A stretch of DNA of 64,000 bases. Origin: a virus. Location: positions 24,573-88,572 of the IMG/VR virus record IMGVR_UViG_3300018044_000001; one strand, 5' to 3'. The position numbers and the translations under genes were made by a program. Within the stretch, counting starts at the first letter, position 1, and each line of letters opens with the position of its first letter. The notes under the pieces were generated by a model, which made no database searches, was not told the origin of the DNA, and was given only the letters and a program-made list of their open reading frames with translations. Shown here one piece after another: positions 22,025-37,389 of the stretch.

Positions 22025-22383
22025 ACGACATCAGCACACATGCCAGGAGTGCCGTCTTTGACGGCGCGCTGACAGTTGCGGAGATCAATGAGCGGTACAA
22101 GGAGGCGTTCAGGAAGAACGGGTGCGACAGGGATGATGTCGCGTACTGGTCGTTGAGTGAGGCGCATCGGAGAGCGTTGAGCGCGCATACGGTTACGGTC
22201 GCGGCTGAGAGGACTAACAGGGTCCAGAGTGATCCAAATCGTGTGATGCCTAAGCAGATTCGCAAGTGGGCAGCGGAGCAGAAGATACCGCTGGGTAAGG
22301 GTGGGCGAGTGACGCCGCAGGTTGATCAGGCGTATCGGGAGGCACATGGGTTGGAGGTGCGGGAGTCAAGACGTCGGACGTAA
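22021..22383 (+). CDS. lsr2: Lsr2-like DNA-binding domain protein
   Basis: IRKWAAEQKIPLGKGGRVTPQVDQAYREAH matches the Lsr2 C-terminal domain; AAGGAG SD. Confidence 0.75.
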   Translation: MNDISTHARSAVFDGALTVAEINERYKEAFRKNGCDRDDVAYWSLSEAHRRALSAHTVTVAAERTNRVQSDPNRVMPKQIRKWAAEQKIPLGKGGRVTPQVDQAYREAHGLEVRESRRRT

Positions 22384-22996
22384 GGTGTGGGCAGATGCCG
22401 CCGTTGCTCTCTCTGCCACAGTTGCAGTTCCAGCACTGTAGGCAATACCTGTCTTGCGGATATCCCTGATCACGCAACCATCGGTAAAAGGTAATACCGC
22501 CATAAATGCCAATCTCTCGCCTGTGTGCAGCGCCATCGTTGTTGACGTGTCCGATTGTCAGGAATGCTGGCTCGGATTCTCCGCAGCATTCACAGGCACC
22601 GCCGTAGGTCGCGAACGTTTCGCTGCGCAACTTCTCTAGTCCAACTTTGTTGGACGCCAATCGGGCAGCGCGATTTTGTGGATCGGCATGATACCATTCA
22701 CGTCTGCGTCCAGACTGACAGGTGTGGCAGTAATGCGACCCGGCTATTCTAGGTTCGGTACCACATTGGCGACACCACGGATCGCAGTCCTCGCAACGAT
22801 CACGTTTCTTGAGTCGGGGCTTGATGCCACACAACTCACATGGCGGACGCGACAAAGACCACCAATCTTCGCTACCAGCACCGTTTGTGCGCGCCGTTTG
22901 ATATCGTTCACGTCGGTTGCTGTCGTAGCACGATTTGCAGAGTCGGGACCGACCACGACGGTTATCGTGCGTCCCGCATTGATCACATGACCACAT
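22250..22996 (-). CDS. Cys-rich HNH-like free-standing endonuclease
   Basis: Multiple CxxC; YGGACECCGE..LTIGHVNNDG...CWNCN...CPH; AGGAGG SD. Confidence 0.7.
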   Translation of the reverse strand: MWSCDQCGTHDNRRGRSRLCKSCYDSNRRERYQTARTNGAGSEDWWSLSRPPCELCGIKPRLKKRDRCEDCDPWCRQCGTEPRIAGSHYCHTCQSGRRREWYHADPQNRAARLASNKVGLEKLRSETFATYGGACECCGESEPAFLTIGHVNNDGAAHRREIGIYGGITFYRWLRDQGYPQDRYCLQCWNCNCGRESNGGICPHLTSDVLTPAPPTHVPPDTPDQPAASLAHPYPAVSSAPLPTCESA

Positions 22997-23080
22997 AGTT
23001 TGCCCTCCTGCTAGAAAGGGTGTTGACTGCGGTGCAGCATAGGCCGCTAGCAGACGACCTACGCTGCACCAACAGATACT

Positions 23081-23100
23081 AACACGCCATTACGGCGTGT
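23081..23100 (-). terminator. Hairpin after the capsid stop, possible terminator
   Basis: ACACGCC-GTAAT-GGCGTGT stem-loop; weak U-tract. Confidence 0.4.
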
Positions 23101-23113
23101 GTCGAATACTTAC

Positions 23114-26100
23114 CTACGCATCCGAATAGGAAGGAGGAGTCGTACCAATGCCGACTCCAGTGATTCCCTGGATTAAGCCATTCCATGCCGATGTTGTTAC
23201 TCACCGCATTCGGTGGGTCGCTTCATTTCTGAGCGGCTCTTGTCATCTCTGACAAGTCCAGATCATATCATCGTCCGTTTAGGACGCCCAGTACATGATC
23301 GTTGAACCTTCACCATCTTACAGGTGCTTGGCTGCTGATTGTCCCTACCGTTCGCTTCTCAAACCGTCACGCTTGCGTTTTCACGCTACGTTGTGGTGCG
23401 AACGTCTAGCAGGACGTTCCAGCAATTCTCTGAGTTTGCATCCATCCATTACTGGATGGTGGCCCCCAATCGAGGCGCATAGTGGCAGAACGTTCCGATC
23501 TCAACTTTGTTGTTACCGTTTACACGGGCCAGGTCATTTCTGCCTGACTCCCACCATCTCTGATGGGAACGGATCATATCTTCACCCGTTTGCACGGGGC
23601 ACCGTACATGATCTCTGAAGCTTCCCCAGTGAAGGGGCTCGCCTGCTGATTGTCCATAGCCATTGCTTTTCAAGCCTTCACGCTCGCCCTTTCGAGCCAC
23701 GTTGTAGCGCAATGGATTGGCTGGACGTTCCAGCAATTCTCGGTGTTGATTTTCATGCCTATTGCTAGGCAGCGACCCTGAAAATCCAGGTCGACGCGTC
23801 GTAGGTAAATTGAACTACTGGCCATTGCACAGCTCGCTCTTGTTGCCGCTTGCGCGGGACACATTTGGTGTGTCTCTTCATGTCTCCATGAAGGCCGGAC
23901 TATATCTTCACCCACTTGGGATGCTCAGTACATAGTCTCTGAACCTTCCCCTGTTTGGGGGCTCGGCTGCTGATTGTCCGTATCACCTGCTTCTCAAACC
24001 ATCGCGCTCGCCCTTTCGGGCCACGCTGTGGTGCAGGTGCTTAGCCGGAGTTCCCAGCAATTCTCTGAGTTGCAACTGCGTATCGCTACGCAGCGACGCT
24101 CGCGTGAACGTAGTCTTGTGGCAGTACCATAACCGATGTTTCAGCAACGTTGGAATCCGGTATCGGCAGGTTCTTCTGCCTGATCAGCGCATTACCCTGT
24201 GGAATCCACGGGTGCACAGTGATCGGAACACTCGAACCAGTCACTTCGTTCATCAATGTCGAGACAACGACGCCAGCGTGGACGCCGCCCATCTCTGACT
24301 GATTCACGAAGATACGATACGCGCTGCTCTGAGGGTTGTTCAGGATCGCGTTGGAAAGCTGCAAACGGTCGAAGCCGTTCATCCAGACTTCCTCCGGGTC
24401 ACTCTTCACAGCCTCATACAAGGAACCGAACGCATACTGGAACTCAACGCCAGGGTTGGTGGTGCTGAACGCCGCGTTCAACCTTGTCACATAGCCACCG
24501 GATGCGGCTACGTTGGTGAGCAATCCATCGTAGTTAGTTGCGACCGCAGATGCGTCAAGACCGTTCGATGGAGTAACGGCAGGACCGCTCTGTGGGAAGG
24601 ATGTCACATATCCGACGTTGTACCCGGTACGACCTGCGTAGTAGGCCGATGCCGAAGACGACACCGAGGATACGAACAGGTTGTAGCCAAGTGCTCCAGT
24701 GGAGTCTGTGCCAATTGTTACCTGGACGGCCTGACCGGCGGTCACGGAAACAGATGCAGCCGCAGTAGTTGCGGACTGGTGCATCGTAGATCCGTTGACA
24801 CCGAGCAGGTCACCAGCGTCGGCGGCCGCCGTCACCCACAACGTTGTCGTTGGGATGGTGGACTTGCCACCGGGAGCTAGGGATGCGCTGACTGCGGCTA
24901 GGGTCAATGCCCCTGGTGCAGCAAGAGCGCCCGCGTAGCCTGACTGGCTGCCGCGTCCGTAAAGCATGAGCCTTTCATCAATCAACATCGTGGAGTAGAG
25001 AAGGGCGGTGTTGCTCAAAGAACGTACGTCTTCGAAGCCCTGTCCCTGATACTCCCGTACTTGTGACCGTCCTCCAAAGGACGGGTCGCATCATTTCTGT
25101 GCGACTCTTCACGTTACCGTGAAGCGCGGACTATATCTTAATCTGCAAGGAGTCTCTTGCGACTCCAGTGTCCTGGCGATGCGCGCCATGCTAAGATGGC
25201 GGTTTGCAACTGGTCCCTTCGTCTTTGCTTCAGCCATGGCCACATGGCAACGGCTAGTGCATACGCATCGGCACCATGAGCACGATAGTCCCATAATGGC
25301 CGATGTTTCATGCTAGGCGATTGGCGCGGGCCGTTACACGTGCCCACTCCTGCCAGTTCGTGAAAGGTGCGGATTACGTCTTCGTCAATCATGCTGATAG
25401 CACAACGAAAACCCACCGTTGTAAAGGGACGTCCATCGGCCCGCACATACGAGCGTGGTCGACCCTGTACATACCCTTCACCTTCAAACACTCCAGCCAT
25501 CCAGGCTAGATTCTCGCGTGTCCAGTTTTTTGATCTGTTTGCAGATTCCATGCGCTTAGTCTCTGAGCCTTCCTCGTAGCTTGCGCCTTAGAGGCTTTGG
25601 TTGCTGATTACCCTATACTAGCACTTCTCAAACCGTCGCGCTCACGTTTTCACGTCACGCTGTGGTGTGCTTCGCTTCAGGGCGTCCCAGCAGTTTTCAT
25701 GGTTGTCATCTGCCTATCGCTAGGCAGCGGACCCTAGTTGAGCCTGCCACGATACTGAGTCCGATAGCGACGTTGTGACGTATGGAAGCGTCACGCTGTA
25801 ACCATCGTAGTTGATGTAAGGTCCACGAATGTAGCTTAACCCGCCAGGACCAGAGGAGTTCAGGTAGGATTCCGTGATACCCGGCTGCACCGTAGTGGCA
25901 CCGCCTGTTGATGTACCCGTGAACCCGCTGATCACCTTGAACTGTCGGTTAGCGCCTTGACCCTTGACTCTTGGAATCGAATTTCGCAAGGGTGTCGGAC
26001 GAGGCGTCAAAAGTTTGGCCGGAGCCTCACTAAAATGTTACTAAACTTGTCAGGTTTAGATCACGTCATTTCTGCGTGATTCTACGCGTCTCCGCGCAGT

Positions 26101-27412
26101 TCGGACTATATCTTAATCTGTGTGCTGTCCACATGAACATGGTTTGCCACGGTTGATATTCCATCGTTGGCATTGTGCCTTGGCTGGATACCAACCTTTG
26201 AGTGATGCGCTGATCTTGGCTTTCTCTTCTGGTGTGTGTAAGACACCTTTTTGAGATTCGCTTCTCTTGGCCCGAGATGCGGGCGACCAAACGTGACCGG
26301 GTTTGAATGTACCGGCGTTCGGGTGTCCTTTGTGAATCTCACTCAGTTTGGCGCGCGTTTCGGGTGTAGCGGTAGTCCCCGTACGCGCATTGCTAATCTT
26401 GCTGCGCGTAACAGAAGAATGCGAACGACCGTAAAATGGATTCCCATCACCAGTCATGGCGGCACTCCTGAGTGCCCTCACCTCTGGCGTAAAAACTGGA
26501 CCATCCTCGCCGCCCGCAGTACCGTTGGTGAGTCGACACCCGATCGACCGATAGTAGCCTATCCAATAATTTTCAGCTACCTGCCAGTCCGACGACGGCA
26601 CTTCCTGTACTAACGTGATCTGTGGATCATATCCACATCGCAGCAGTTTGGCTATCCAACGAGATCGCCAGTCGCCTTGGCCAATGCGTGCCTGACTGCG
26701 GTGACAGGATAGTCTGTCGGAAAGGCGTTGTATTGTCTTGCCTACGTATCGAATCTCATTGTCGCGTGGATCAATGAGCACGTAGATTTTTGTCATGCGT
26801 GACAACTTACAGATTCCACGTACATAGTCTCTGAACCTTCCTCGTGCCCTGGACGGGTGTAGAGGCTCGGCTGCTGATTGCCCTATACTAGCACTTTTCA
26901 AACCGTCGCGTCAAGTCTTTCGACTCCCGCTGTGGTGTGCTTCGCTTCAGGGTATTCCAGCAATTCTCGTGGTTATTGCCTGCGTATCGCTACGCAGCGA
27001 TCCCGAGGGGGAGATCGTAGGGGACCAAACCTGTGGTCACAGGCGTGGTCAATGTCCATTCTTTCTCCATCTCTTGCCAGTCAACAGCGCCCGCACTCTT
27101 TGCCATCTCGTAAGCATCAACAGCCTTACGTACGACACCAGCGCGGTCACTCCTCTTGGCAATTGGAGCTACAGGCCCATGCCCCGGGATAAAACCAGTT
27201 GCGATCGTATCCGGGGGTGCCTGCACAAAGCCGACATCGCCGTTCAAACCGGCAATCGTGGCCTTGGTCATTTCTGATAGGAACTCTTGACGATCCTCTG
27301 TTACCTCACGATCAGACTTTGCACTGAAGCGCAATGCGCCACCGTGTGCAGCCTGAGCACCAGGATCACGAGAACCGTCGAACAACTCCCTTGCATTTGG
27401 AAGGGACGGCAT
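23114..27412 (-). CDS. Major capsid protein, spliced from 6 exons: 27412-27012, 26029-25741, 25054-24108, 23834-23788, 23504-23473, 23188-23114 (596 aa)
   Basis: Exons total 1791 nt in one frame; junctions read YDL|EAPAK, WQA|EYQGQGFED, QDYV|AVQWP, DAST|FEIGT, HYAP|AWNG; follows the protease and scaffold genes. Confidence 0.9.
23189..23472 (-). ncRNA. Group I intron 5 of the capsid gene (284 nt, no ORF)
   Basis: P1 GCCT/GGGC; P3 CTCAG/CTGGG; P7 variant GATCA/TGATC; terminal G before GCATGG. Confidence 0.93.
23505..23787 (-). ncRNA. Group I intron 4 of the capsid gene (283 nt, no ORF)
   Basis: P1 CGACCT/GGGTCG; P3 CACCG/CGGTG; P7 variant GATCA/TGATC. Confidence 0.93.
23835..24107 (-). ncRNA. 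Group I intron 3 of the capsid gene (273 nt, no ORF)
   Basis: P1 ACGT|TC/GAGCGT; core P, Q, R, S elements; P3 CTCAG/CTGAG; P7 GACTA/TAGTC. Confidence 0.93.
25055..25740 (-). mobile_element. Group I intron 2 of the capsid gene (686 nt) with LAGLIDADG ORF in L8
   Basis: AACTGCTGGGA, AATCAGCAA, CTCAGAGACTA, AAGATATAGTCC; P3 CCATG/CATGG; terminal G. Confidence 0.93.
25138..25551 (-). CDS. Intron-encoded single-motif LAGLIDADG endonuclease
   Basis: LAWMAGVFEGEG motif; 137 aa. Confidence 0.85.
   Translation of the reverse strand: MESANRSKNWTRENLAWMAGVFEGEGYVQGRPRSYVRADGRPFTTVGFRCAISMIDEDVIRTFHELAGVGTCNGPRQSPSMKHRPLWDYRAHGADAYALAVAMWPWLKQRRRDQLQTAILAWRASPGHWSRKRLLAD
26030..27011 (-). mobile_element. 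Group I intron 1 of the capsid gene (982 nt) with GIY-YIG ORF in L8
   Basis: P1 CGATCT/GGATCG with U.G at the splice site; AATTGCTGGAA, AATCAGCAG, TTCAGAGACTA, AAGATATAGTCC; terminal G. Confidence 0.95.
26113..26796 (-). CDS. Intron-encoded GIY-YIG homing endonuclease with NUMOD3-like repeats
   Basis: KIYVL...RYVGKT...R...H...E; HTPEEKAKISAS-type repeats. Confidence 0.88.
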   Translation of the reverse strand: MTKIYVLIDPRDNEIRYVGKTIQRLSDRLSCHRSQARIGQGDWRSRWIAKLLRCGYDPQITLVQEVPSSDWQVAENYWIGYYRSIGCRLTNGTAGGEDGPVFTPEVRALRSAAMTGDGNPFYGRSHSSVTRSKISNARTGTTATPETRAKLSEIHKGHPNAGTFKPGHVWSPASRAKRSESQKGVLHTPEEKAKISASLKGWYPAKAQCQRWNINRGKPCSCGQHTD

Positions 27413-27433
27413 GTGTTACTTCACTTTCCGACC

Positions 27434-29482
27434 TTAACTCGCCAACTGCGCGCGCAACTCCTTGATCAACTCACGGTTGCCATCGCGGACGGTCAGGTCT
27501 GGGGTATCGCGAGCTTCGCGCTCAAGAGCTGCTATGCGCAGTTCCGTCATGTCGCGGCTCGCGGTTTTCATGGTCATTTCTGGTGTGCGGGTCTTTACCG
27601 GCCCACCAGGAGCTGCCATTTTCTTGACCCCATCCAACTCACTCTTCAACGTCTCGACTGTCGCCTGCAGACTCTGATTCTGCTCAACGACCTTTGCGAG
27701 ATGCTCTTCAATTTGCTTGGTTAGTGCCGCGTTTTCAGCAGCTTGTTTCTCTGCCTCTTCGGCCTTGCGCAGCTCCTTCTTGGCAGCCTTGCGCGCCGCT
27801 TTGGCTTCGATCTGTTCAGGCGTCAGTTCCTCTTCGTCTGCAGCCTTGGCCGCACCAGTCGCCTGGTTCGTACCGCTGGCGCTTTCGTTGTCTCCGTGAT
27901 CTGCCTCGTCCTCAAGGTCGTCATTTTCGTCCTTGGGGGCCTTTTGCTTGTTCTTCTTGTCGGCACCCTTCGCGTTGGAAATGGCGTCTGCCTCATCCAT
28001 CGCGGGCTTGCCCTTCAGTGCCTCACCAATGAGCTTGACGAGCTTTTCATCGCGCCCGTCGAGCACCTGTAGAAGCTCGTCGCCTGTCATATCATCAATC
28101 TCCTTGGCGAGTATCGCCTTAGTGGTTTCGTCGTCATCGTCATCATCATCGTCATCCGAGTCAGAATCGGAATCATCGTCCCCGTCGTCGTCATCGTCAG
28201 AATCCGACTCGGGGTCATCCACGCCCAACAGTCCACTGATCACAGCACGGGCAGCCACGAGGGCGCTAATCGAGTCTCCCGATAGTCTTGCACCTGATTT
28301 TTCTGCGGTGTCGTCCAACGCTTTCTCTGCTTGCGAAGCAACGGCCTCATGGAAGGCAAGCGTCGCCATCTGCCCGATTGCCGCAGACAAGATGTCCAGC
28401 ACGCACTCGGCACTGAACGTGTCGAACACGTCATTGCCCTCGCCAGCAGCCACCTCAATGGCCTCACGGTCACGGAACTGCCGCGTCAGTTCATATGCCT
28501 GCAGGATCAGATTGGCCGCGTCTGAAGCGATCACAGCGTCCGCTGCTTCCCATTCTGGCGAACCAGGCATAGCAGCAGCGTCGTCTGCAGCAGGTGCGGC
28601 AGGTGGTGCACCAGTTACGGAGCCACCAAGGAATGGGTTGTCACCGCTAACGACGCCATCCTTCTCAACAAGCTCGACACTCTTGGTAGCCAACGACCCG
28701 TCCGAGTTCCAGTTGTCTGGAATCTTGGACGACAAGTTCAGCGCCTTCGCGCGTGCGATGATGTGCTTACGAATGGCATCGTGGTCAGCACCGCCGCGAC
28801 CGACAGCATGGATCGCGTTGTCAAGGTCTTCGGCATCGGCAACAGGGTAGGCACCGTCAGACATGGCCTGACCACTGCTGGCCATCTTGTCGCGGTCAGC
28901 CTGCTTGTACTTGGCCTTGACTAGTTCCTCATATGCAGCAAGTGCTTTGTCGATCGTGGTGCGACCGTTGCCATCGTCGGACGATCCTGCGAACCCAGGC
29001 TGCGCGTTCAACTTGTCAGCGGGCGGCATCTGTCCATCGCTGCCAGTACCGTTGCAGTCTGTACATGTCTTGCCGTCAAGTAGCGTGCCGCTGCCATGAC
29101 ATGTCGGGCAGTCCTTGGCGGTTGGTACGGGCACACCACTTGCAGCCGTTGCCTTGGCAGCCTCAAGCAGTTCCTTCTCTGTCTGTCCGACCTTGGGAGC
29201 GTTGCCGGTGCCGAGACACTTCGGGCACTTGCGGTGGCCTTCCATGATCTTGCCCGTGCCCTTGCATTTAGGACAGTCCTGGCTGTCGTCACCGTCGTCT
29301 GTCTCGTCGTCGGCCTTGACAATCTCCATGTCAAGATTCTCCGCGACCTGTTCTAGGACTGCGCGAACCTCTTCGCTGGCAGACTTGGCAAGTAACGCTT
29401 TGAAACCGTTAGCACCTTTGCCCACGAGATGGAGTTCATCGGGATCGATCTCCTCGAACTCCGTGATAGCTACGTCTGTCAT
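27434..29482 (-). CDS. Scaffold-like head protein with DnaJ-type zinc-finger repeats
   Basis: Four CxxCxGxG repeats; GAYPVAD..DLDNAI..GR segment; Asp tract; C-terminal coiled coil; directly upstream of capsid. Confidence 0.7.
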   Translation of the reverse strand: MTDVAITEFEEIDPDELHLVGKGANGFKALLAKSASEEVRAVLEQVAENLDMEIVKADDETDDGDDSQDCPKCKGTGKIMEGHRKCPKCLGTGNAPKVGQTEKELLEAAKATAASGVPVPTAKDCPTCHGSGTLLDGKTCTDCNGTGSDGQMPPADKLNAQPGFAGSSDDGNGRTTIDKALAAYEELVKAKYKQADRDKMASSGQAMSDGAYPVADAEDLDNAIHAVGRGGADHDAIRKHIIARAKALNLSSKIPDNWNSDGSLATKSVELVEKDGVVSGDNPFLGGSVTGAPPAAPAADDAAAMPGSPEWEAADAVIASDAANLILQAYELTRQFRDREAIEVAAGEGNDVFDTFSAECVLDILSAAIGQMATLAFHEAVASQAEKALDDTAEKSGARLSGDSISALVAARAVISGLLGVDDPESDSDDDDDGDDDSDSDSDDDDDDDDDETTKAILAKEIDDMTGDELLQVLDGRDEKLVKLIGEALKGKPAMDEADAISNAKGADKKNKQKAPKDENDDLEDEADHGDNESASGTNQATGAAKAADEEELTPEQIEAKAARKAAKKELRKAEEAEKQAAENAALTKQIEEHLAKVVEQNQSLQATVETLKSELDGVKKMAAPGGPVKTRTPEMTMKTASRDMTELRIAALEREARDTPDLTVRDGNRELIKELRAQLAS

Positions 29483-29484
29483 GA

Positions 29485-29994
29485 TCAGCTCCTCAAGTGA
29501 GCGAGTGTGTCGGGATCGGGCGTGCGCCTTCTGGCTCTACCTTGCGGGGACGCCCCGCCGATAACGCCCTGTTTGTACAGCTGCCATGCTTCTGGCGTGA
29601 GGATCATTCCACATAGCCAGTCGCCGGGTTCAACTACCTGTTCGGTCGTGCCATCCGCAGACTTTTCAACCCATGTCGGTCCACGATATATGTAGTTCTC
29701 TACGACCTCGCCGGGGTTGTGTCCAGGTTCATGGAACATGCCGAGCTTGCAACCTTTGCGCATGAAATTGAAACAGGCCAGTTCTATAACTGGGGCCGGG
29801 CCGTAATCCCGATGTCCGTCCTGGGCCGTGCTCACATCGGCCTTCATACACGGATATGCAACCATCAACACATACCGCTGCTCTTCGTTGGACTTAATGA
29901 CGGCACAGTCGGTAATCGCACGCGCAGGCGGGGACGGGTCAGGTGTTTCTTCTGGTGTGATGTTCACCGTCAACTTAAAAACGGCTTCGGTCAT
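29485..29994 (-). CDS. XkdF-like putative prohead protease
   Basis: KSNEEQRYVL, D..GHRD, LGMFH, VVENYI, GDWL..W..YKQG...GAS..G. Confidence 0.8.
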   Translation of the reverse strand: MTEAVFKLTVNITPEETPDPSPPARAITDCAVIKSNEEQRYVLMVAYPCMKADVSTAQDGHRDYGPAPVIELACFNFMRKGCKLGMFHEPGHNPGEVVENYIYRGPTWVEKSADGTTEQVVEPGDWLCGMILTPEAWQLYKQGVIGGASPQGRARRRTPDPDTLAHLRS

Positions 29995-30389
29995 TTCTGT
30001 CCCTTCTGAGGGGTGCGAGTCGCCCACGGAACCAGGACGAGTGCCACGCCTGCCTGAATCATGGCCTGCGCGTTGTTCTTGTCGTTATCTATCGCCACGT
30101 CGATCCCGTGTTGCTGGCACCACAGCGCCTTCTGTGCTGGAATATCGCCGGACACAACAACCAACTGGTCCCAGCACTGCGTCACGCCGACCTTGTTGAG
30201 ATACGCTGCCTTGTCTGCCCACGTGGGACCGCTTGGCGAATCTGGACTGCTACCGCTTACGACGTAGACGCGGTTGCCATCGGCTTTGAGCGCGCACATC
30301 AGGTCACAGAATGCTGGCGGATCGCTGGAGATGGAGCCGTCGATGTCAATAAGAAAACTGAGCTGCTTAGGATTCAGCATGGGCGACAC
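29991..30389 (-). CDS. HAD-like small phosphatase
   Basis: LIDIDGS, VVSG, K and IDND motifs. Confidence 0.65.
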   Translation of the reverse strand: MSPMLNPKQLSFLIDIDGSISSDPPAFCDLMCALKADGNRVYVVSGSSPDSPSGPTWADKAAYLNKVGVTQCWDQLVVVSGDIPAQKALWCQQHGIDVAIDNDKNNAQAMIQAGVALVLVPWATRTPQKGQK

Positions 30390-30401
30390 TTTCTGTAAAC
30401 C

Positions 30402-30851
30402 TTAGATTCCTAACGCAGCACCCCACGCGTCACGAAAGATGCGAGGTATGACAGGTAGCGCCTTGTCGACGCCTGGCTGCAGGTAGGCGTACGGGGGCTG
30501 GTTGAAGTGTCTGCCCAAACTGTCCGTACCCGTGAAACCCAGCTCGATGCGACGACCATAGATCATTGTCGGTGCGACAGATATGGTGTATTTGCCAGGT
30601 CCGAGCATGATCGGCTCTGGTGGGATGAGCATGATGGACCGACGCAACGAACCTGTCACTACGTTCGGACGGTTGCCACCTACGTGCGGTTGTCCCTTCG
30701 GATGGTTGCCCTCGAACTCACGCCTGGCGTTGTCCCTAATGAGCAGAGCACCTGTAGCCGTACCCGCTTTGGTTGCCTCGTTGATTCGCTTGATCAACGC
30801 GTCCATGGAATCGTTGAAACCCTTGGCGTCGATTTTGAAGCCACCAGGCAT
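30402..30851 (-). CDS. HK97 gp10-like neck/morphogenesis protein
   Basis: PNVVTGSLRRSI, YGRRIELG, PYAYLQP motifs; TAATG coupling to portal. Confidence 0.75.
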   Translation of the reverse strand: MPGGFKIDAKGFNDSMDALIKRINEATKAGTATGALLIRDNARREFEGNHPKGQPHVGGNRPNVVTGSLRRSIMLIPPEPIMLGPGKYTISVAPTMIYGRRIELGFTGTDSLGRHFNQPPYAYLQPGVDKALPVIPRIFRDAWGAALGI

Positions 30852-33800
30852 TACTCGTACCCCGTCACTGCTGTGCTTGCACAACGACACAGAGGATGCT
30901 CGGGAATGGACGGATCATCGGTGCCAACGTCATACGGGCCATTGTCGGCATTCTCTAGGCAATCCTCGCACGCGTTGTCTTCGGCAATCCACCCCCACTG
31001 CGAGATACCGTTGACTTCGTATGTATCCTGCGATGCTGTCTCCGCTGCCCGACAACATTCTGTGTCCGCTATCATGTACGCATTGGCCGTCACGGCATCA
31101 CTTAGTGACGTGGCAATCGTGTCTACACTGTCGCCCCTCGCAATCCCATCCGCGAGCACATTGCCAACACGGTCAATCCCGTTGTCAATCGCAGACTTGA
31201 TAGTGATGCCAGCCTGCTCAAGTAGTTGCTGCAGTCCACCATTGGCAACGAGGTCGGATGCTTGGATACTGCCAGGAGTCCAGTCGTCCCATGACAACGC
31301 AGTACCGATAGCCATCTGTGCATCAGGTGATATCTGTTGTGCCGCTGCGTGCGAGCCGACCATGTAACTCTCGGCAATAAGATCACGCAGGATTTGCGCG
31401 GCTGATGACTGTGCTACGGTGACGTTCATTGCAGCAGCAGATTGGGCAATGCCCTGGTCGTCTGCACCACCACCAGCATCAGCGACTGCCTTCGCAGCAG
31501 TCTTACGCTGTGCCTCATCTATCGCCTGGTGCAACCCCTTGGTGCTGTGCTTCAGTGCTGCCGTGAGTAATGGGGCGTAGTGGGCGACGATGGCGTCGCG
31601 GAGGGCGTCGATGGGGTGTGTTGCTTTTGCTAACCACGGAGGTAGTGTCCATGATCCCACAGACTTTGCAGCAGATGGTGTCTGCACCGTGAACTGAATC
31701 GTGCCGTCCTTCTTGATACCTGTCACTACGTAGTCAGATCCACGAGGCAGGATCACCTCGCCTTGTCCTGTCCACGTCATCAGTGCGTGCGAACCGGCAG
31801 GTATGTTGATCTCTACGTTGTGGCCAGGACGGAAGTCGCCGTATTGATTGGCCATTTCACGCAGCATCGTCGTGGACTCATAACCAGGATCGTGATAGGT
31901 GTCGCCTACTTTCAATCCTTCAAGCGGTGCAGCATTCGTAAAGCCACGGTAGACCGTCGTGTCTGCTGTTACTGTCCTGCTTGCGATGGCACTGTCAAGA
32001 CCCTTGACCTGACCAGCGAAGCCACGAGTAGAACCGCTTTCGCGTAGTCCGATGTTAACATCAGCACCGCCTGCGGGCCTCGTGTAATCCGATACCGCTC
32101 GTGCCTCAGATGCAGTCAGCGGACGCTCTTCCTTGAACGTTCCCGCGTCGTGAATGGCTGCCAATTGTCGCTCTGCCGCTGTTGGCTTCATGCCTTCAAA
32201 CGGCGGCGAGTAAACGCAGGGATTGCTCTCGCCGCTCGACGCTGCGGCACGACCGCCACCACCACTTATGTGTGCAGTGCGTGCACCATCCTCGTTGTGA
32301 CTACCACCAGTGACGTCAGGCGGGCGACTAGCACTAGGGGATGAAGTTCTGCCGCCGCCACGGCCATACAGATCCTCGTAAGATGTGACGTGTCCGCCAC
32401 CGCTGCCAAACTCGCCCTGCGCGTTACGCTCCTGAGTCTCCCACGAGTCGCCCCATTTGGCTAGTTGCTCAGGGGTAGTTAGCCCACGAGAGTGGGCGGG
32501 ATCTTTTGGGTCTGCTTTGACCGCATTGTTAGCTTTGTCGCCACCCAAAGCAAATCGCACTACTTCATCGCCACGATGTACCGACAGGTAATCAAACGTC
32601 AGCGGTGTCAGTGGTAGTGGCTTAGGTAGCGGATCATCAGGGTCTAGATAAGCAAGCGTGATGTGGGGCATGAAGTCATGTTCACTAGCACTCAGGTCTT
32701 CCAGTGCTTCGCGCAAGTCAGTAATGCCAGCAATGTTGGGCACAACATACACTGGTTTCAGTCCGTCGCTACTTGCCGATGGAGCAAACGACGCAATGCC
32801 GCTGATGGTACCAGTCAAAGGTCCGGGCGCGTCCTTCGCTGCCTTACGGGCTGCATCGCATGCTTCAGCAAATGACTTATCGTCAACGTCTGGACCGAGA
32901 TAAACGACCGTCAGGTGAAAATCTGTGATTCCACCAGATAGCGGAGTAATCACACCGTCAGGCACGTCAAGAGATATCATGCCAGAACGTGGATTCAGGT
33001 CGTACGCCTGTGCACTCTTTACCGCGCCGAGCAGGCTCCAATCTGAACTTTGGCATTCCACTCTGACAGCACTATTCCCAACAACGTCACTAGGCTCCCA
33101 CCATGCAGCAGCAGCAATCTCGCCGGTGTCGCGATCAGTCACGTCACCGAGGTCGATGGCAGACTCGTGCTTGATTTGCAGAACGAACGCTTGGTACGTA
33201 CCGTCAGGTGTGAGCCATGAGCCGGTGATGTCACCTTGAGGAAGTGGCAGGCCAACTTCGGCTTGCCATTCCCTGGTAGCACCAGAGAACGCGTCCTCGC
33301 CTTTGTGACACTGGCCGCCGGGCCATTCCCATGTGCCCGGTGCTAGATGGTCGTCGTTCACGCGCTGCACCATGAGAACACGGCCGGTATCGGCGGCGAG
33401 GACGATTATGCCAGCAGCGTCGGGTTGGGCGTTGACGACGGACTTGATAGCATCGAGATCACCAGCACGTCCGAGGTCGTTTAGATGTCTGCCCTGTACG
33501 CTGGCCACTGCGGAGAACGAAAAGTCGCGCCAGCTTCCGCGGTCGATGCGTGCCTTGGCGAACTTGACGAATGACTTGAGTTCCTTCTCTGCGTCCGTGT
33601 CGGATTCGCTCTTGGAATCGCTGGCAGAACTGTCCTTGCTTGGACTTGATCCTGTAAGCTCAGTATTTCCGTCAGAGTCTGTCGAAGTTCCTCCAGCTGC
33701 GCTACCAGTTGGCTTGCGTCCGCTGTTATCGTCAGGTGTACTTCCGTTGGCATTAGCGTCTGTGCCTCCATTGTTTGCGGCAGGTGGTGGAACTGGTGAA

Positions 33801-35518
33801 CCGTCAGGTGCGGTCGGAAGGGGCTTGCCGTCAGGACCGACAAATACTTGCTTGGGGGGTTCTGGTGGATTGAGGGTGGCTTCGGTGTTCGCGTCTTGGA
33901 CGGCGAGAGTGCCCTTGAGGAACACTGGACCTTGTGCTCCGGCAATGAACGGTTCGTCGGCTTCCGGCATGGAGTACAGGGGCAGCCCGTTCTTTGCGCG
34001 CCAGTCGTTCAACGTGATACGACCGTTGTTGACGGTCTGTGTGTCGGCGTTGGCCTGTTGCAGAATGTCCTGCTCAGAACCGCCAGTGTCTTGACAAGTA
34101 GCGGTAATCTCACGACCGATACCAAGGTAGCGACGAGCTAGGTCGTTTTGTACGTCAATCAGGAAGTTGACAAACGCTTCAGTGACGAAGTGTTCGGTCT
34201 GGTCTTCCTCGCCCTCCATCTGGCGACCGCCAGACAGTCCAGCCTTTGCCTGCACACCTAACTGTGTCGCGGGAACGCCAAACTTGGACCCCATCTGAAT
34301 GATGAGAAAATTGTCGTAGTCCGACTTGTAGTGCTCTTCAATTTGCGGTGGCCACTCGGGCTTCATGCCGGGAGGCAACAGGAACGCTTGCTGACGACGG
34401 TTGATCTGACCGCTCAAACGGTCATTCATGGTCTGTTCATATCCGAATTGTTGTTCAGGCGTCCACCCTGTCGGATTGTCCTTGTCCATCGTGTAGTACG
34501 TTTTGGGGGACATTCCGTAAACGTATTCAGACCTCATCCACGCCTGACGCTGCAGATACGTCGTAGCGACTGTCATGACCTCTTCGGTCGGAGGATAGCC
34601 ATAGACAGATTCGGGACGGGGACGACGGATGTAATACGCCAACTGGTCGCTGGCAAACTCACCCTCGACGGGGCCATCGCCAGCTTGGAATTCCCCGCGT
34701 GGAAAGCCGTATAAGATTTGCTGGAAGGCAGGGGCGGGAGGCTCGGGAGGAAAGCCCTGATTGTCGAGCAGTATCTTAATCGTGCTCGTGTCAATCGGTG
34801 CCAGCGCAAAGAGATCGCCGCCAAGGGTCCGCTGTGGGTATATGCAGATACCGTCATATACCAGGGACTGCCAGATGATCTCCGCGAGCCACTGTGAGGG
34901 CGAGTGCTTGCTGCGCTGGTCGGGACGCTCGAAGAACGACTTAACGCGATCAAGCTCGGTGCCGTATTTGTCGGCGGCGAGGGCCATGGCGCGGGCGTGG
35001 TTCGCTTCGCCCGTGTCTCGCATAATCTGTTCAATAATTGAGTCGCTATACCCCCACGACCAATCGCGACCACAGATGCCGTCTTGTACCAACTGGATGC
35101 ACCTATTGACCACATCACATTCTTCTGCAATCCACTTCAGCGCGGTCCACGGGAGTGCTCTGTCCGCGAGTTGTAAATTTATGGCTACCAGGTACTGTGC
35201 ACGACGCGGTAGGGCACGACCGCCAGGACCAAGCGCGTCTATCGCGTCAGGGAAGAGTGGTACGCCCGGACCAAAGCCAGAGTTGAAATCACCCAGAGGA
35301 CGAGGCAACGGCACATATCCCGGCACTTGTCCTGCCGTCTGTGCAAACGGTGACGACGGGTTGGGAATGTACGTAGCACCGCTAACAGCGCGGCCCTGCG
35401 AGTTGGCAGCGGCCGCGACAATATCGCGACTCATCGCCTTCTCGACGCCCGCCTCAACCGCTGCACTGAGTGCAGCCTGTTTGCGTTCTGTACGGCGCGA
35501 CAGGATGGGGATGGCCAA
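30851..35518 (-). CDS. Portal protein fused to Nudix, 2H phosphoesterase, ADP-ribosyltransferase and MuF domains
   Basis: N-terminal portal (PIDTSTIK, YGYPPTE, ITLNDWRAKNGLP); WEWPGG..REWQAEVG; HLT...HIT; VYRG/YESTT/QGE; C-terminal C..C...HPLCRC. Confidence 0.88.
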   Translation of the reverse strand: MAIPILSRRTERKQAALSAAVEAGVEKAMSRDIVAAAANSQGRAVSGATYIPNPSSPFAQTAGQVPGYVPLPRPLGDFNSGFGPGVPLFPDAIDALGPGGRALPRRAQYLVAINLQLADRALPWTALKWIAEECDVVNRCIQLVQDGICGRDWSWGYSDSIIEQIMRDTGEANHARAMALAADKYGTELDRVKSFFERPDQRSKHSPSQWLAEIIWQSLVYDGICIYPQRTLGGDLFALAPIDTSTIKILLDNQGFPPEPPAPAFQQILYGFPRGEFQAGDGPVEGEFASDQLAYYIRRPRPESVYGYPPTEEVMTVATTYLQRQAWMRSEYVYGMSPKTYYTMDKDNPTGWTPEQQFGYEQTMNDRLSGQINRRQQAFLLPPGMKPEWPPQIEEHYKSDYDNFLIIQMGSKFGVPATQLGVQAKAGLSGGRQMEGEEDQTEHFVTEAFVNFLIDVQNDLARRYLGIGREITATCQDTGGSEQDILQQANADTQTVNNGRITLNDWRAKNGLPLYSMPEADEPFIAGAQGPVFLKGTLAVQDANTEATLNPPEPPKQVFVGPDGKPLPTAPDGSPVPPPAANNGGTDANANGSTPDDNSGRKPTGSAAGGTSTDSDGNTELTGSSPSKDSSASDSKSESDTDAEKELKSFVKFAKARIDRGSWRDFSFSAVASVQGRHLNDLGRAGDLDAIKSVVNAQPDAAGIIVLAADTGRVLMVQRVNDDHLAPGTWEWPGGQCHKGEDAFSGATREWQAEVGLPLPQGDITGSWLTPDGTYQAFVLQIKHESAIDLGDVTDRDTGEIAAAAWWEPSDVVGNSAVRVECQSSDWSLLGAVKSAQAYDLNPRSGMISLDVPDGVITPLSGGITDFHLTVVYLGPDVDDKSFAEACDAARKAAKDAPGPLTGTISGIASFAPSASSDGLKPVYVVPNIAGITDLREALEDLSASEHDFMPHITLAYLDPDDPLPKPLPLTPLTFDYLSVHRGDEVVRFALGGDKANNAVKADPKDPAHSRGLTTPEQLAKWGDSWETQERNAQGEFGSGGGHVTSYEDLYGRGGGRTSSPSASRPPDVTGGSHNEDGARTAHISGGGGRAAASSGESNPCVYSPPFEGMKPTAAERQLAAIHDAGTFKEERPLTASEARAVSDYTRPAGGADVNIGLRESGSTRGFAGQVKGLDSAIASRTVTADTTVYRGFTNAAPLEGLKVGDTYHDPGYESTTMLREMANQYGDFRPGHNVEINIPAGSHALMTWTGQGEVILPRGSDYVVTGIKKDGTIQFTVQTPSAAKSVGSWTLPPWLAKATHPIDALRDAIVAHYAPLLTAALKHSTKGLHQAIDEAQRKTAAKAVADAGGGADDQGIAQSAAAMNVTVAQSSAAQILRDLIAESYMVGSHAAAQQISPDAQMAIGTALSWDDWTPGSIQASDLVANGGLQQLLEQAGITIKSAIDNGIDRVGNVLADGIARGDSVDTIATSLSDAVTANAYMIADTECCRAAETASQDTYEVNGISQWGWIAEDNACEDCLENADNGPYDVGTDDPSIPEHPLCRCASTAVTGYE

Positions 35519-35575: not shown

Positions 35576-36085
35576 TTAAACCTCTTGCAGTAGAAAGGGA
35601 GTCCACTCGGGTGATACGGCATACAGCAATAGTCTCGCGTGCGCGCCGCGAGGGCGCGTGGGCTTGTGCAGGAGCGGCATCTTGGCCTGCTCCGGCGTGC
35701 GATTGCCCTTGTGGTGATTGCATTTCCTGCACGACGCGACGACGTTCTCCCACGTGTGCGTACCACCCTGAGCACGTGGCACCAGATGGTCCATGGTGTC
35801 TGCAGGATCGCCACAGAATGCGCACGATCCGCCGTCACGAGCGATGACGGTCCGTGTCGTGAGGGGAATGCTCCGACCCCTCGGCACATTGACAAACCGT
35901 CTCAGACGCACCACGCTGGGCAACGTGAAGTTCACATATTGACTGTGCACAACGGTATCGCTGTCGAGCACGACATCCGCTGTCTGATCTAACACCAGCA
36001 GCAACGCACGCCGCGCATCACAAACATGCAACGGTTCTCCGCTGGCGTTGAGTAGTAACGATCTGACCTGTCTACCAGGTGGCAT
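35576..36085 (-). CDS. HNH endonuclease at the end of the tRNA array
   Basis: LLLNASGEPL, RDGGSCAFCG, TMDHLVPR..GG.H.WENVV..C..CN..K; ATG 36085 with AGAGGA SD. Confidence 0.9.
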   Translation of the reverse strand: MPPGRQVRSLLLNASGEPLHVCDARRALLLVLDQTADVVLDSDTVVHSQYVNFTLPSVVRLRRFVNVPRGRSIPLTTRTVIARDGGSCAFCGDPADTMDHLVPRAQGGTHTWENVVASCRKCNHHKGNRTPEQAKMPLLHKPTRPRGAHARLLLYAVSPEWTPFLLQEV

Positions 36086-36103
36086 GCTCCAGTCCTCTTT
36101 TCG

Positions 36104-36177
36104 TCCTGGTGGAGGGATTCGAACCCTCAACGCGTGGTCCTTGAAGCCACCGCCTCTGCCGGTTGGGCTACACCAGG
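36104..36177 (-). tRNA. tRNA-Leu(CAA), atypical short variable arm
   Basis: Acceptor CCTGGTG/CACCAGG-A; loop TT-CAA-GG; C31:A39 mismatch. Confidence 0.65.
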
Positions 36178-36201
36178 TAGCGTTATGACATCGTAGTCCA
36201 G

Positions 36202-36273
36202 AGCCAACGACGTGAGTCGAACACGCAACAACGAAGGTACGAGCTTCGCTTCCATCCGTAGGAACTCGCTGGC
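36202..36273 (-). tRNA. tRNA-Thr(CGT)
   Basis: CGAAG-CTCGTAC-CTTCG; TTCGA T-loop. Confidence 0.8.
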
Positions 36274-36319
36274 AAGCGGCCGTTCTTGTTAAACCGGGAA
36301 CATGCCCTAAAGCCGGTCG

Positions 36320-36402
36320 TGCGGATGGTGGGACTTGAACCCACATGCCTAACGGCAGTCGCTTTTAAGGCGACCGTGTATACCAATTCCAACCACATCC
36401 GC
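36320..36402 (-). tRNA. tRNA-Leu(TAA)
   Basis: GTCGC-CTTAAAA-GCGAC; long variable arm. Confidence 0.9.
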
Positions 36403-36406
36403 GTAG

Positions 36407-36480
36407 CACCCCTGGCGGGACTCGAACCCGCATCATACCATTACGGTTACTTGCTTAGAAGACAAGACCGATACAGGGGC
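36407..36480 (-). tRNA. D-armless tRNA-Arg(TCT)-like gene
   Basis: Acceptor and T-arm intact; CTTGT-CTTCTAA-GCAAG; no D-arm. Confidence 0.7.
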
Positions 36481-36481
36481 G

Positions 36482-36557
36482 TGACGGGGGCGGGATTTGA
36501 ACCACGCGACCTCTAGGTTATGGGCCTAGCGAGCTGACCAAACTGCTCTACCCCGCG
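36482..36557 (-). tRNA. tRNA-fMet-like (CAT)
   Basis: CGCGGGG start with 1:72 mismatch; CTAGG-CCCATAA-CCTAG. Confidence 0.8.
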
Positions 36558-36629
36558 TGGCAGATGTTGGTATCGAGCCAACCAGACACGATCCTTATGA
36601 GAGATCGCCGCTTACCCTGAGCAACTGCC
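36558..36629 (-). tRNA. tRNA-Met/Ile2(CAT), degenerate
   Basis: GATCT-CTCATAA-GGATC; irregular acceptor and D-arm. Confidence 0.6.
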
Positions 36630-36631
36630 GG

Positions 36632-36704
36632 GGTGACGGGGGGAACTCGAATCCCCTTGCACTAGGGCCACAACCTAGCCGCGTACCACGATGCGTCCCG
36701 TCAC
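36632..36704 (-). tRNA. tRNA-His(GTG), possibly 8/4 fold
   Basis: CTAGG-TTGTGGC-CCTAG; C73. Confidence 0.8.
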
Positions 36705-36706
36705 AG

Positions 36707-36777
36707 TACCAGTGGAAGGTGTCGAACCTCCGTCCCAACTTTGTAAGAGTTGTCGTCTCCCGTTGACATACACTGGC
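36707..36777 (-). tRNA. tRNA-Val(TAC)
   Basis: CAACT-CTTACAA-AGTTG. Confidence 0.85.
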
Positions 36778-36781
36778 GTAG

Positions 36782-36853
36782 TGCTCCTACCCGGACTCGA
36801 ACCGAGAATGCCTGCTTAAAGGGCAGAACCGTTTCCATTACGATCATAGGAGC
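36782..36853 (-). tRNA. tRNA-Lys(TTT)
   Basis: TCTGC-CCTTTAA-GCAGG. Confidence 0.8.
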
Positions 36854-36855
36854 AA

Positions 36856-36930
36856 TGGTAGGCGACCAGGGAATCGAACCCTGTATCAGACCATATCAGA
36901 GTCTGCGATTAGCCGTCTTCTTCGTCGCCC
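36856..36930 (-). tRNA. tRNA-Ile(GAT)
   Basis: AGACT-CTGATAT-GGTCT; encoded CCA. Confidence 0.75.
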
Positions 36931-36931
36931 G

Positions 36932-37006
36932 TGGTGGTCCCTGTCGGACTCGAACCGACCTCTCTGCGTCTTCAGCGCGGCGCTAATCCGTCTCAGCTAA
37001 AGGACC
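36932..37006 (-). tRNA. tRNA-Phe(GAA)
   Basis: Loop CT-GAA-GA; encoded CCA. Confidence 0.85.
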
Positions 37007-37010
37007 GTAG

Positions 37011-37087
37011 TGCGGGCCGCGGGACTCGAACCCGCATGGACCGTATTACCCTTTCAACATTTCATAAGAATGAGGGGATACGCCCGC
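37011..37087 (-). tRNA. D-armless tRNA-Ile(TAT)-like gene
   Basis: CATT-CTTATGA-AATG; T-arm GCGGG-TTCGAGT-CCCGC; A73; no D-arm. Confidence 0.65.
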
Positions 37088-37089
37088 AA

Positions 37090-37163
37090 TGGAGCCGATG
37101 GCAGGAGTTGAACCCGCGTCTGGTGAGTACAAAACACCTGTACTTCCGTTGTACGACACCGGC
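37090..37163 (-). tRNA. tRNA-Thr(TGT)
   Basis: Loop TT-TGT-AC; encoded CCA. Confidence 0.85.
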
Positions 37164-37166
37164 AAA

Positions 37167-37314: not shown

Positions 37315-37315
37315 G

Positions 37316-37388: not shown

Positions 37389-37389
37389 A

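What the first reader, a model, noticed from the sequence alone, without database searches (positions are those of the whole stretch)
23114..27412. Major capsid gene split by five group I introns, with 47-nt and 32-nt micro-exons
Seen: five copies of the group I core (P AATTGCTGGAA, Q AATCAGCAG, R TTCAGAGACTA, S AAGATATAGTCC). Each begins after a U paired with G in a P1 helix and ends in G. Removing 27011-26030, 25740-25055, 24107-23835, 23787-23505 and 23472-23189 gives one 1791-nt frame (596 aa); three junctions split codons yet keep the frame. P3 differs between introns but stays paired, and P7 covaries (GACTA/TAGTC versus GATCA/TGATC). Known: phage group I introns mostly sit in DNA-metabolism genes, typically one to three per gene. 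Inference: making the most abundant virion protein needs five splicing events, which could act as a timing or GTP/Mg-sensitive checkpoint, and skipping could give capsid variants. ORF callers will fragment this gene.
Basis: partly seen in the sequence, partly recalled or inferred. Interest (0 to 1): 0.93.

Follow-up and report, generated by a model that had tools for sequence, protein, structure and literature searches.

The report
Capsid gene split by five introns
The probable main shell-protein gene of a peat-bog phage is cut into six pieces by five related self-splicing introns, and environmental RNA carries the pieces joined exactly as predicted; this is an extreme case of a known phenomenon, not a new mechanism.

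Summary
All five stretches match Rfam's group I intron model (46.8-74.9 bits). Each follows a U that pairs with G in a 5-7 bp P1 helix, and each ends in G. Removing them gives one 1791-nt frame of 596 aa. That protein aligns without gaps at all five junctions to uninterrupted homologues, including one of exactly 596 aa.

Metatranscriptome contigs from three studies carry exon-exon joints at exactly the five predicted places. A DNA run laid beside them carries none.

The gene sits after portal, protease and scaffold. A distant homologue is annotated as major head protein.

The same intron family occupies at least 10 exactly mapped sites in this capsid gene family. Five related viral contigs carry 2-4 introns each.

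Close relatives lack the introns, and 8 of the 10 possible runs of skipped internal exons shift the frame.

There is prior art: a crAss-like capsid gene split into five fragments (PMC7886860). This scan has also noted multi-intron capsid genes on other DNA.

The parts
27012..27412 (-). Exon 1 (401 nt, codons 1-133 plus 2 nt), ATG at 27412
   Evidence: RNA joint 26029|27012
26030..27011 (-). Intron 1 (982 nt), group I, with an endonuclease gene in the P8 loop
   Evidence: RF00028 49.9 bits. Own-family nhmmer profile, E 5e-49. P1 of 7 bp with U.G. Joined across in RNA runs X5, X6 and X8; contiguous in DNA run X2.
26113..26796 (-). Intron-1 homing endonuclease gene, GIY-YIG-like plus NUMOD3. The ATG at 26796 was read. 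The mechanical ORF runs from an upstream TTG at 26901. The stop lies in J8/7.
   Evidence: Pfam NUMOD3 65 bits (above cut-off). GIY-YIG 20.6 bits (below the 22.6 cut-off). phrog_314 homing endonuclease, E 2e-17.
25741..26029 (-). Exon 2 (289 nt)
   Evidence: (phrog_13692)
25055..25740 (-). Intron 2 (686 nt), group I, with an endonuclease gene in the P8 loop
   Evidence: RF00028 54.4 bits. Joint 25054|25741 in X5 and X6.
25138..25551 (-). Intron-2 ORF, 137 aa, HNH-type endonuclease by PHROG only. It starts in P3' and its stop lies in J8/7.
   Evidence: phrog_5046, E 3.8e-21; no Pfam match
24108..25054 (-). Exon 3 (947 nt), the bulk of the protein
   Evidence: phrog_13692, E 1.5e-56; 143 homologues
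23835..24107 (-). Intron 3 (273 nt), group I, no ORF
   Evidence: RF00028 74.9 bits. Joint 23834|24108 in X5 and X8.
23788..23834 (-). Exon 4, a 47-nt micro-exon
   Evidence: carried whole inside the RNA contigs
23505..23787 (-). Intron 4 (283 nt), group I, no ORF
   Evidence: RF00028 46.8 bits, below cut-off. nhmmer E 1e-50. Joint 23504|23788 in X5 and X8.
23473..23504 (-). Exon 5, a 32-nt micro-exon
23189..23472 (-). Intron 5 (284 nt), group I, no ORF
   Evidence: RF00028 54.8 bits. Joint 23188|23473 in X5 and X8.
23114..23188 (-). Exon 6 (75 nt including the stop)
27434..35518 (-). Upstream head module: a portal fusion (30851-35518), a protease-like ORF (29485-30027) and a 682-aa scaffold-like protein (27434-29482)
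   Evidence: PHROG matches to portal, head maturation protease and minor head protein

Best explanation
Window 27412-23114 (minus strand) is the phage's major capsid protein gene, interrupted by five paralogous self-splicing group I introns. The phage genome is complete: 88.6 kb with terminal repeats, from a peat or wetland sample.

Each ribozyme recognises its own 5' splice site through a site-specific internal guide sequence (the P1 helix, with U.G at the splice site) and ends in G. In each intron an in-frame stop in the P2 loop halts ribosomes 6-7 codons into the intron. Excision of all five rebuilds one 596-codon mRNA.

Two introns carry homing endonuclease genes in P8. The introns are selfish mobile elements of a single lineage. 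That lineage has colonised many conserved sites of this capsid gene family by homing, and probably also by ectopic insertion. They are not a regulatory device.

Shown: ribozyme anatomy, covariation, exact junctions, joined forms in RNA libraries, and presence/absence among relatives. Inferred: self-splicing chemistry, endonuclease activity, the mode of spread, and the capsid fold.
For: Ribozymes:
- Five RF00028 matches.
- Covariation on 10 family members: 45 of 71 pairs with changes on both sides, 0 of 500 shuffles as high.
- A P1 helix with U.G in 18 of 18 resolved introns.

Junctions:
- One open 1791-nt frame.
- Gap-free alignment at all five junctions to five uninterrupted proteins, including P0271 of 596 aa.
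- Single tblastn stretches spanning all five junctions in 13 related contigs.

RNA:
- Contigs of three metatranscriptome studies join 26029|27012 (X5, X6, X8), 25054|25741 (X5, X6), and 23834|24108, 23504|23788 and 23188|23473 (X5, X8).
- The X6 joints have 0 differing letters.
- DNA run X2 shows no joint. Its contigs run through intron 1, the 5' junction of intron 2, and intron 5/exon 5.

Mobility:
- The same family is present in 5 of about 90 related viral contigs, with 2-4 copies each, always in this gene.
- At least 10 exactly mapped sites, five of them shared between genomes.
- All RF00028 and family-profile hits of the 88.6-kb genome lie in this gene.
- Endonuclease ORFs in introns 1 and 2.

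Frame-matched stop:
- 5 of 5 here and 16 of 18 overall. This is a known trait of bacterial group I introns (PMC3073962, passage read).

Capsid identity:
- Gene order portal-protease-scaffold-this gene.
- The same position in three annotated phages, one of which names it major head protein.
- A weak profile match to SPO1 Gp6.1, E 0.0019, in two collinear stretches.
- No rival capsid candidate among the 16 other ORFs scanned against PHROGs.
Against: Two of the five Rfam matches are just under the gathering score (49.9 and 46.8 against 50).

The RNA contig that joins exons 3-4-5-6 comes from a variant strain, with 12-13 differing letters in 483 nt of exon 3. In run X8 it runs on unspliced into intron 2. 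So for introns 3-5 an allele without these introns, or DNA in the RNA library, is not excluded. All runs laid were contigs, not reads, so they give no splicing efficiency.

Capsid identity has no fold and no named family:
- Pfam and NCBIfam give nothing.
- phrog_13692 is 'unknown function'.
- hhalign to the SPO1 capsid family matches only a 58-column insertion domain, at 79.8% probability.

The GIY-YIG match is below Pfam's cut-off. Self-splicing and endonuclease activity are untested.
Confidence: 0.85

Rival explanations
1. The five introns act as a regulatory device, either a timing or GTP/Mg-sensitive checkpoint on capsid synthesis, and exon skipping yields capsid variants.
For: Five splicing events are needed for any capsid protein. 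The phage introns are retained with intact, covarying cores. Exon skipping is reported for the three-intron Twort gene; I saw only that paper's title in reference lists, and its content is recalled.
Against: Thirteen related contigs have the uninterrupted gene. Intron sets differ between relatives. Eight of the 10 possible runs of skipped internal exons shift the frame, and the other two delete 342 or 412 residues. No skipping joint is listed.
Confidence: 0.06
2. The interrupted gene is a head-module protein other than the major capsid protein, for example a large decoration or accessory head protein.
For: No Pfam, NCBIfam or named PHROG match. The only profile-profile match to a capsid family is an Ig-like insertion domain. 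Two large downstream ORFs (717 and 1006 aa) have no PHROG match.
Against: It holds the canonical position after portal, protease and scaffold. It has the same position in Brevundimonas, Thermoanaerobacterium and Alicyclobacillus phages, where no other capsid gene lies between portal and head-tail connector. It is annotated as major head protein in MMB025. The second stretch of the SPO1 Gp6.1 match is C-terminal and collinear. The family is very large in viral contigs: 569 of 600 candidate stretches.
Confidence: 0.1
3. The joined forms in the RNA libraries are not splicing products. They are transcripts or contaminating DNA of co-occurring strains whose gene lacks the introns.
For: The contig joining exons 3-6 is a variant strain and retains intron 2 in X8. 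Alleles without introns exist in related contigs. The tool warns that DNA can be present in RNA libraries.
Against: The X6 joints across introns 1 and 2 are letter-identical to the window on both sides. DNA run X2, which holds both strains, shows no joined form. The listed RNA contigs for introns 3-5 lie inside the introns and stop short of the exon borders. The ribozyme cores are intact and covary.
Confidence: 0.07

Closest known systems
MCP gene of a crAss-like Zeta-group phage cMAG (Yutin et al. 2021, PMC7886860; passages read)
   Same: A major capsid gene split into five fragments, with group I intron-type domains in three of the four gaps, in an uncultured phage.
   Different: Here there are six exons and five introns, all with detected ribozyme cores. 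Two exons are micro-exons of 47 and 32 nt. The junctions are exact and are supported by RNA contigs. The phage clade is unrelated: a peat phage whose nearest cellular-genome relatives lie in Acidimicrobiaceae MAGs. That paper identified its introns through protein domains. I could not see its supplements.
Staphylococcus phage Twort orf142 (Landthaler and Shub 1999; only the title seen in reference lists; content recalled)
   Same: Several group I introns within one phage protein-coding gene.
   Different: Three introns there, five here. Exon skipping was reported there and is not seen here.
Mycobacteriophage LittleE capsid intron (Pope et al. 2013, PMC3706429; passages read)
   Same: A probable group I intron with an endonuclease ORF in a major capsid gene of an actinobacterial phage, with splicing shown by RT-PCR. 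U ends exon 1 and G ends the intron.
   Different: One intron there, five paralogous ones here. The capsid families are unrelated.
Intron-rich phages: Jug jumbo phages (PMC12880540) and Bastillevirinae (PMC11878797); passages read
   Same: [quoted passage not shown]
   Different: In those phages the introns are spread over many genes. Here all the genome's introns sit in one gene.
T4 td intron with I-TevI (review PMC3073962; passages read)
   Same: An in-frame stop just inside the intron keeps ribosomes out of the core. An endonuclease ORF in a peripheral loop has an end that overlaps core sequence.
   Different: The ORF sits in P8 rather than P6. No P7.1/P7.2 is evident. The subgroup was not determined.

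Membership tests
Group I intron (Rfam RF00028) | Conserved core helices P3-P8 with the P, Q, R and S elements | tested here: met
   Five matches from 46.8 to 74.9 bits. P2-P9.1 and P7 covary on 10 family members.
Group I intron (Rfam RF00028) | 5' splice site after a U in a U.G pair of P1, formed with an internal guide sequence | tested here: met
   5 of 5 window introns and 18 of 18 resolved family members have a 5-9 bp P1 with U.G.
Group I intron (Rfam RF00028) | [quoted passage not shown] | tested here: met
   All five end in G.
Group I intron (Rfam RF00028) | Precise excision and exon ligation in RNA | tested here: met
   Exon-exon joints at all five predicted places in RNA-library contigs and none in the DNA run. 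For introns 3-5 the joined contig is from a variant strain, so the result is weaker there.
Group I intron (Rfam RF00028) | Protein-independent self-splicing started by guanosine | not testable with these tools
   Needs in vitro transcription with GTP and Mg.
Mobile (homing) group I intron | An intron-encoded homing endonuclease | tested here: inconclusive
   Intron 1: NUMOD3 is above cut-off, GIY-YIG is below it, and phrog_314 has E 2e-17. Intron 2: phrog_5046 only. Introns 3-5: no ORF.
Mobile (homing) group I intron | Presence/absence polymorphism at the same site among related genomes | tested here: met
   Thirteen contigs are uninterrupted. Sites 230.00, 561.33 and 572.00 are shared with L009, L097 and L031.
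HK97-fold major capsid protein of tailed phages | HK97-type fold | not testable with these tools
HK97-fold major capsid protein of tailed phages | Membership of a named capsid sequence family | tested here: not met
   No Pfam or NCBIfam match. phrog_13692 is unnamed. PDB profile hits are weak: Gp6.1 at E 0.0019 and 'Major capsid protein' chains at E 0.19-0.28.
HK97-fold major capsid protein of tailed phages | Position after portal, protease and scaffold and before the head-tail connector | tested here: met
HK97-fold major capsid protein of tailed phages | The most abundant virion protein | not testable with these tools
   Needs virion proteomics.

The most novel reading that the evidence does not exclude
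One group I intron lineage has spread within a single capsid gene family to a dozen or more conserved sites. The proposed route is RNA-level reverse splicing guided by 4-6-nt guide-sequence matches. Several sites share the same short P1 target. After each insertion, selection would set the P1-P2 spacing so that the P2-loop stop falls in the exon's reading frame. The abundant capsid mRNA would be the preferred sink. This clade would then be a natural system for testing reverse-splicing transposition, which is so far supported mainly indirectly.
Probability: 0.3. Interest if true: 0.7.

Novelty: new member of a known kind. Interest (0 to 1): 0.5.

Why it matters
This is one of the most heavily interrupted phage protein genes for which RNA evidence of exact exon joining exists. 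It shows that gene callers systematically shatter this capsid family: many database 'proteins' of about 300-390 aa are single exons.

The clade-wide picture offers material for studying how group I introns reach new sites and coexist in tandem without mis-splicing. One intron lineage occupies at least 10 exactly mapped sites, carries site-specific guide sequences and has frame-matched stops.

It does not reveal a new mechanism.

Tried and rejected

Searches that gave nothing or little:
- Pfam, NCBIfam and the first PDB profile search gave nothing for the capsid protein.
- Megablast of the locus against GenBank phages found nothing.
- hhalign against a single SPO1 Gp6.1 sequence gave 6% probability.
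- hhalign against a 27-sequence alignment of that family gave 79.8% over 58 columns of an Ig-like insertion domain only. I do not count this as evidence of the capsid fold.

Joints that I considered and set aside:
- Joint 25962|27011 (skips 1048, run X5 only, depth 5.35). I considered an alternative 3' splice site. I think it more likely that a diverged strain's first 66 nt of exon 2 were left unaligned, because it is marked 'between: not known' and 1048-982 = 66, as in the row marked 'same length, diverged'. It remains unresolved.
- The 26883|26950 joints, with loose ends at 26864 and 26974 in X5 and X8. These look like a related intron core from another context.
- No exon-skipping joint was listed, but contigs drop rare variants.

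Unresolved or negative:
- The interior of intron 2 has no cover in the three RNA runs, but contigs join across it.
- The intron tree was largely unresolved: 2 of 13 inner branches were well supported.
- The first intron sites of L010 and L104 could not be placed under the T...G and no-indel rule.
- There is no 'spare exon' copy at the start of any intron. Read-through stops after 6-7 codons.
- No extra mini-intron is evident, since the alignments are gap-free at the junctions.
- Searches for prior reports of five or more introns in a phage capsid gene found only PMC7886860. I did not request supplements; those of PMC7886860 and PMC12880540 may list further cases.
Full report
WHAT IS THERE. The window lies in a complete 88,572-bp virus record with direct terminal repeats. 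On the minus strand between 27412 and 23114, Rfam's group I intron model RF00028 matches five times. Three matches reach the gathering score in the whole-window scan (74.9, 54.8 and 54.4 bits). All five appear in a 4.8-kb scan, the other two at 49.9 and 46.8 bits against a cut-off of 50, with E-values from 2.7e-18 to 7e-10. The only other row there is a chance RsmY match at E 0.76. A search of the whole genome puts every RF00028 match inside this gene. So does an nhmmer profile that I built from the five 5' modules: five hits in the genome and none elsewhere.

Exons of 401, 289, 947, 47, 32 and 75 nt sum to 1791 nt, with one terminal stop and 596 aa. The junction phases are 2, 0, 2, 1 and 0, so three codons are split. 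Each 5' exon ends in T and each intron ends in G. Each intron forms a 5-7 bp P1 helix with the splice-site U paired to G, and the guide sequence differs to match each exon.

The five introns are paralogues. Their 5' modules are 57-76% identical and share an extended P5. I aligned ten small introns of the family, three from the window and seven from relatives. RNAalifold recovered P2, P3, P4, P5 with its extension, P6, P8, P9 and P9.1, and 43 of its 66 pairs kept pairing through changes on both sides. With P7 added:
- 97.5% of cells pair.
- 45 of 71 pairs have changes on both sides.
- None of 500 shuffles reaches the observed values.
- Sliding the partners drops pairing to 29-36%.

Introns 1 and 2 carry ORFs in the P8 loop. 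The first matches NUMOD3 above the cut-off, GIY-YIG just below it, and phrog_314 'homing endonuclease'. The second matches phrog_5046 'HNH endonuclease' only. Both stop codons lie in J8/7 (read).

ARE THE JUNCTIONS RIGHT? The joined protein was kept inside scripts. It aligns without a gap at any of the five junctions to five uninterrupted database proteins, among them P0271, which is also 596 aa. Every junction lies in a strongly conserved stretch. Thirteen related viral contigs encode the protein as one tblastn stretch covering all five junctions, at 56-74% identity. Many of the 120 listed homologues of exon 3 are fragments that begin near residues 226-260 or end near 544-551. That is what ORF callers produce on interrupted copies.

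RNA EVIDENCE. The locus is found in peat and wetland metagenomes and metatranscriptomes. I laid contigs of three RNA runs from three studies (X5, X6, X8) and one DNA run (X2) on 23000-27500. The RNA contigs carry these joints:
- 26029|27012 in X5, X6 and X8
- 25054|25741 in X5 and X6
- 23834|24108, 23504|23788 and 23188|23473 in X5 and X8

These are exactly the five predicted excisions (982, 686, 273, 283 and 284 nt). The X6 contigs across introns 1 and 2 have no differing letter. The DNA run has no joint. Its contigs run through intron 1, the 5' border of intron 2, and intron 5/exon 5.

There are caveats. These are contigs, not reads. The contig joining exons 3-6 belongs to a variant strain (12-13 differences in 483 nt of exon 3), and in X8 it continues unspliced into intron 2. 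For introns 3-5, therefore, an allele without these introns or a partly spliced precursor cannot be told apart. Either way the intron borders are confirmed to the base.

IS IT THE MAJOR CAPSID GENE? Pfam and NCBIfam give nothing, and the PHROG family is unnamed. The case rests on four things.
- Position. The gene follows a portal fusion, a protease-like ORF and a 682-aa scaffold-like protein.
- Position in relatives. Distant homologues in Brevundimonas, Thermoanaerobacterium and Alicyclobacillus phages sit between portal/protease and the head-tail connector. The Alicyclobacillus phage MMB025 record calls its copy 'major head protein'.
- A weak profile match to the solved chain 'Gp6.1' (E 0.0019, two collinear stretches including the C-terminus). 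Gene 6.1 is annotated as the SPO1 major head protein, with a 468-aa product, the length of the matched chain.
- No other capsid candidate among the 16 other ORFs scanned against PHROGs; the tape measure and a tail protein lie downstream.

Profile-profile comparison with the SPO1 family matched only a 58-column insertion domain. I put capsid identity at about 0.85-0.9.

THE WIDER PICTURE. The capsid family is large: 569 of 600 candidate stretches in IMG/VR encode a relative, and 1203 cluster representatives score E <= 0.001. Its cellular-genome relatives are mostly Actinomycetota, and the closest are uncultured Acidimicrobiaceae MAGs. This is a lead to the host, not proof.

Among about 90 distinct related viral contigs, five carry introns of the same family, always in this gene:
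- L031 carries 4.
- L009 carries 3 of this family plus one of another type.
- L097 carries 3.
- L010 carries 3, two of them on a duplicated segment.
- L104 carries 2, at a contig end.

Placing splice sites under the T...G and no-indel rule gives these sites in window protein coordinates:
- Window: 133.67, 230.00, 545.67, 561.33, 572.00
- L009: 204.00, 230.00, 236.33, 566.33
- L031: 137.00, 236.33, 515.00, 572.00
- L097: 252.00, 548.00, 561.33
- L010 and L104: 252.00

That makes 12 sites under the rule. Two of them (204.00, 548.00) lie 2 nt from the start predicted by the profile, so I count at least 10 as firmly mapped. Two further introns, the first in L010 and the first in L104, could not be placed. 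L009 has a 19-nt micro-exon. Only 1 of 37 cellular-genome loci has a family hit.

HOW IT MOST LIKELY WORKS. Each ribozyme folds on its own and uses its own guide sequence. In all five window introns the exon frame stops 6-7 codons into the intron. The stop falls at intron nt 19-22, in the P2 loop, whatever the insertion phase. The same holds for 16 of 18 resolved introns and 10 of 12 sites. An early in-frame stop that keeps ribosomes out of the core is a described trait of bacterial group I introns (PMC3073962).

The introns behave as selfish elements, for three reasons. Relatives do without them. Intron sets differ between genomes. Insertion sites are the most conserved peptide stretches. Several sites share the same short P1 target, which fits ectopic spread by reverse splicing, but this is an inference. 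The intron tree is too poorly resolved to order events. Only window introns 1 and 2, together with L031_137, form a supported clade.

WHAT IS NOT SUPPORTED. The checkpoint and capsid-variant ideas lack support. Eight of the 10 possible runs of skipped internal exons shift the frame, and the other two delete 342 or 412 residues. No skipped joint was listed.

COMPARISON WITH WHAT IS KNOWN.
- Capsid-gene introns are published: LittleE, and Tuc2009 as cited in PMC3706429.
- So is a crAss-like capsid gene in five fragments (PMC7886860).
- So are genes with two or three introns in Bastillevirinae and Jug phages.
- My searches found no phage gene with five or more demonstrated group I introns.
- This scan itself has noted multi-intron capsid genes on other DNA, one with 16 introns (not checked by me).

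I therefore class the finding as a new member of a known kind. It is notable for the exact RNA support and for the clade-wide intron swarm.

Noticed in passing
window 23189-27011 and loci L009, L010, L031, L097, L104: In 16 of 18 resolved introns (10 of 12 sites) the upstream exon's frame meets its first stop at intron nt 19-22, in the P2 loop. The P1-P2 spacing tracks the insertion phase: phase 0 gives nt 19 or 22, phase 1 gives nt 21, phase 2 gives nt 20. The exceptions are L009_566 and L031_515.
   Followed up: partly
L009:4852-5998: A relative has a 222-nt group I intron of a different type at site 230.00 (Rfam 50.9 bits; missed by the family profile). It is followed by a 19-nt micro-exon and a 906-nt intron.
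   Followed up: partly
L010:3423-4482: An exon segment plus the intron start occurs twice in tandem (3423-3731 with the intron at 3737, and 4044-4283 with the intron at 4289). This is either a real duplication or an assembly artefact.
   Followed up: no
window 25962-27011: One RNA contig (X5, depth 5.35) joins 25962|27011, 66 nt more than intron 1. It is an alternative 3' site or, more likely, a diverged strain left partly unaligned.
   Followed up: partly
window 26864-26974: RNA contigs in X5 and X8 match only the P4-P6 core of intron 1 and run on into unrelated sequence on both sides. This suggests a related intron expressed in another context in the same habitats.
   Followed up: no
window 22250-22996 and 35576-36346: Free-standing HNH endonuclease genes lie directly downstream of the capsid gene and upstream of the portal gene.
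   Followed up: no
window 27434-29482: The 682-aa scaffold-like protein carries DnaJ-type CXXCXGXG zinc-finger repeats and a long acidic low-complexity tract. Its C-terminus weakly matches a head maturation protease PHROG.
   Followed up: no
window 10795-11640: A tyrosine-integrase-like ORF (phrog_1, E 7e-32) sits upstream of the tail tape-measure region, among the genes between the capsid gene and the tail genes.
   Followed up: no
window 36104-39985: Twenty tRNA genes reach Rfam's gathering score in a 3.9-kb block on the minus strand.
   Followed up: no
L105, L131, L133, L134, L135: The closest cellular-genome relatives of the capsid protein (51-75% identity) lie in uncultured Acidimicrobiaceae MAGs, which may point to the host. 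L134 has one family intron hit just upstream of the match.
   Followed up: partly
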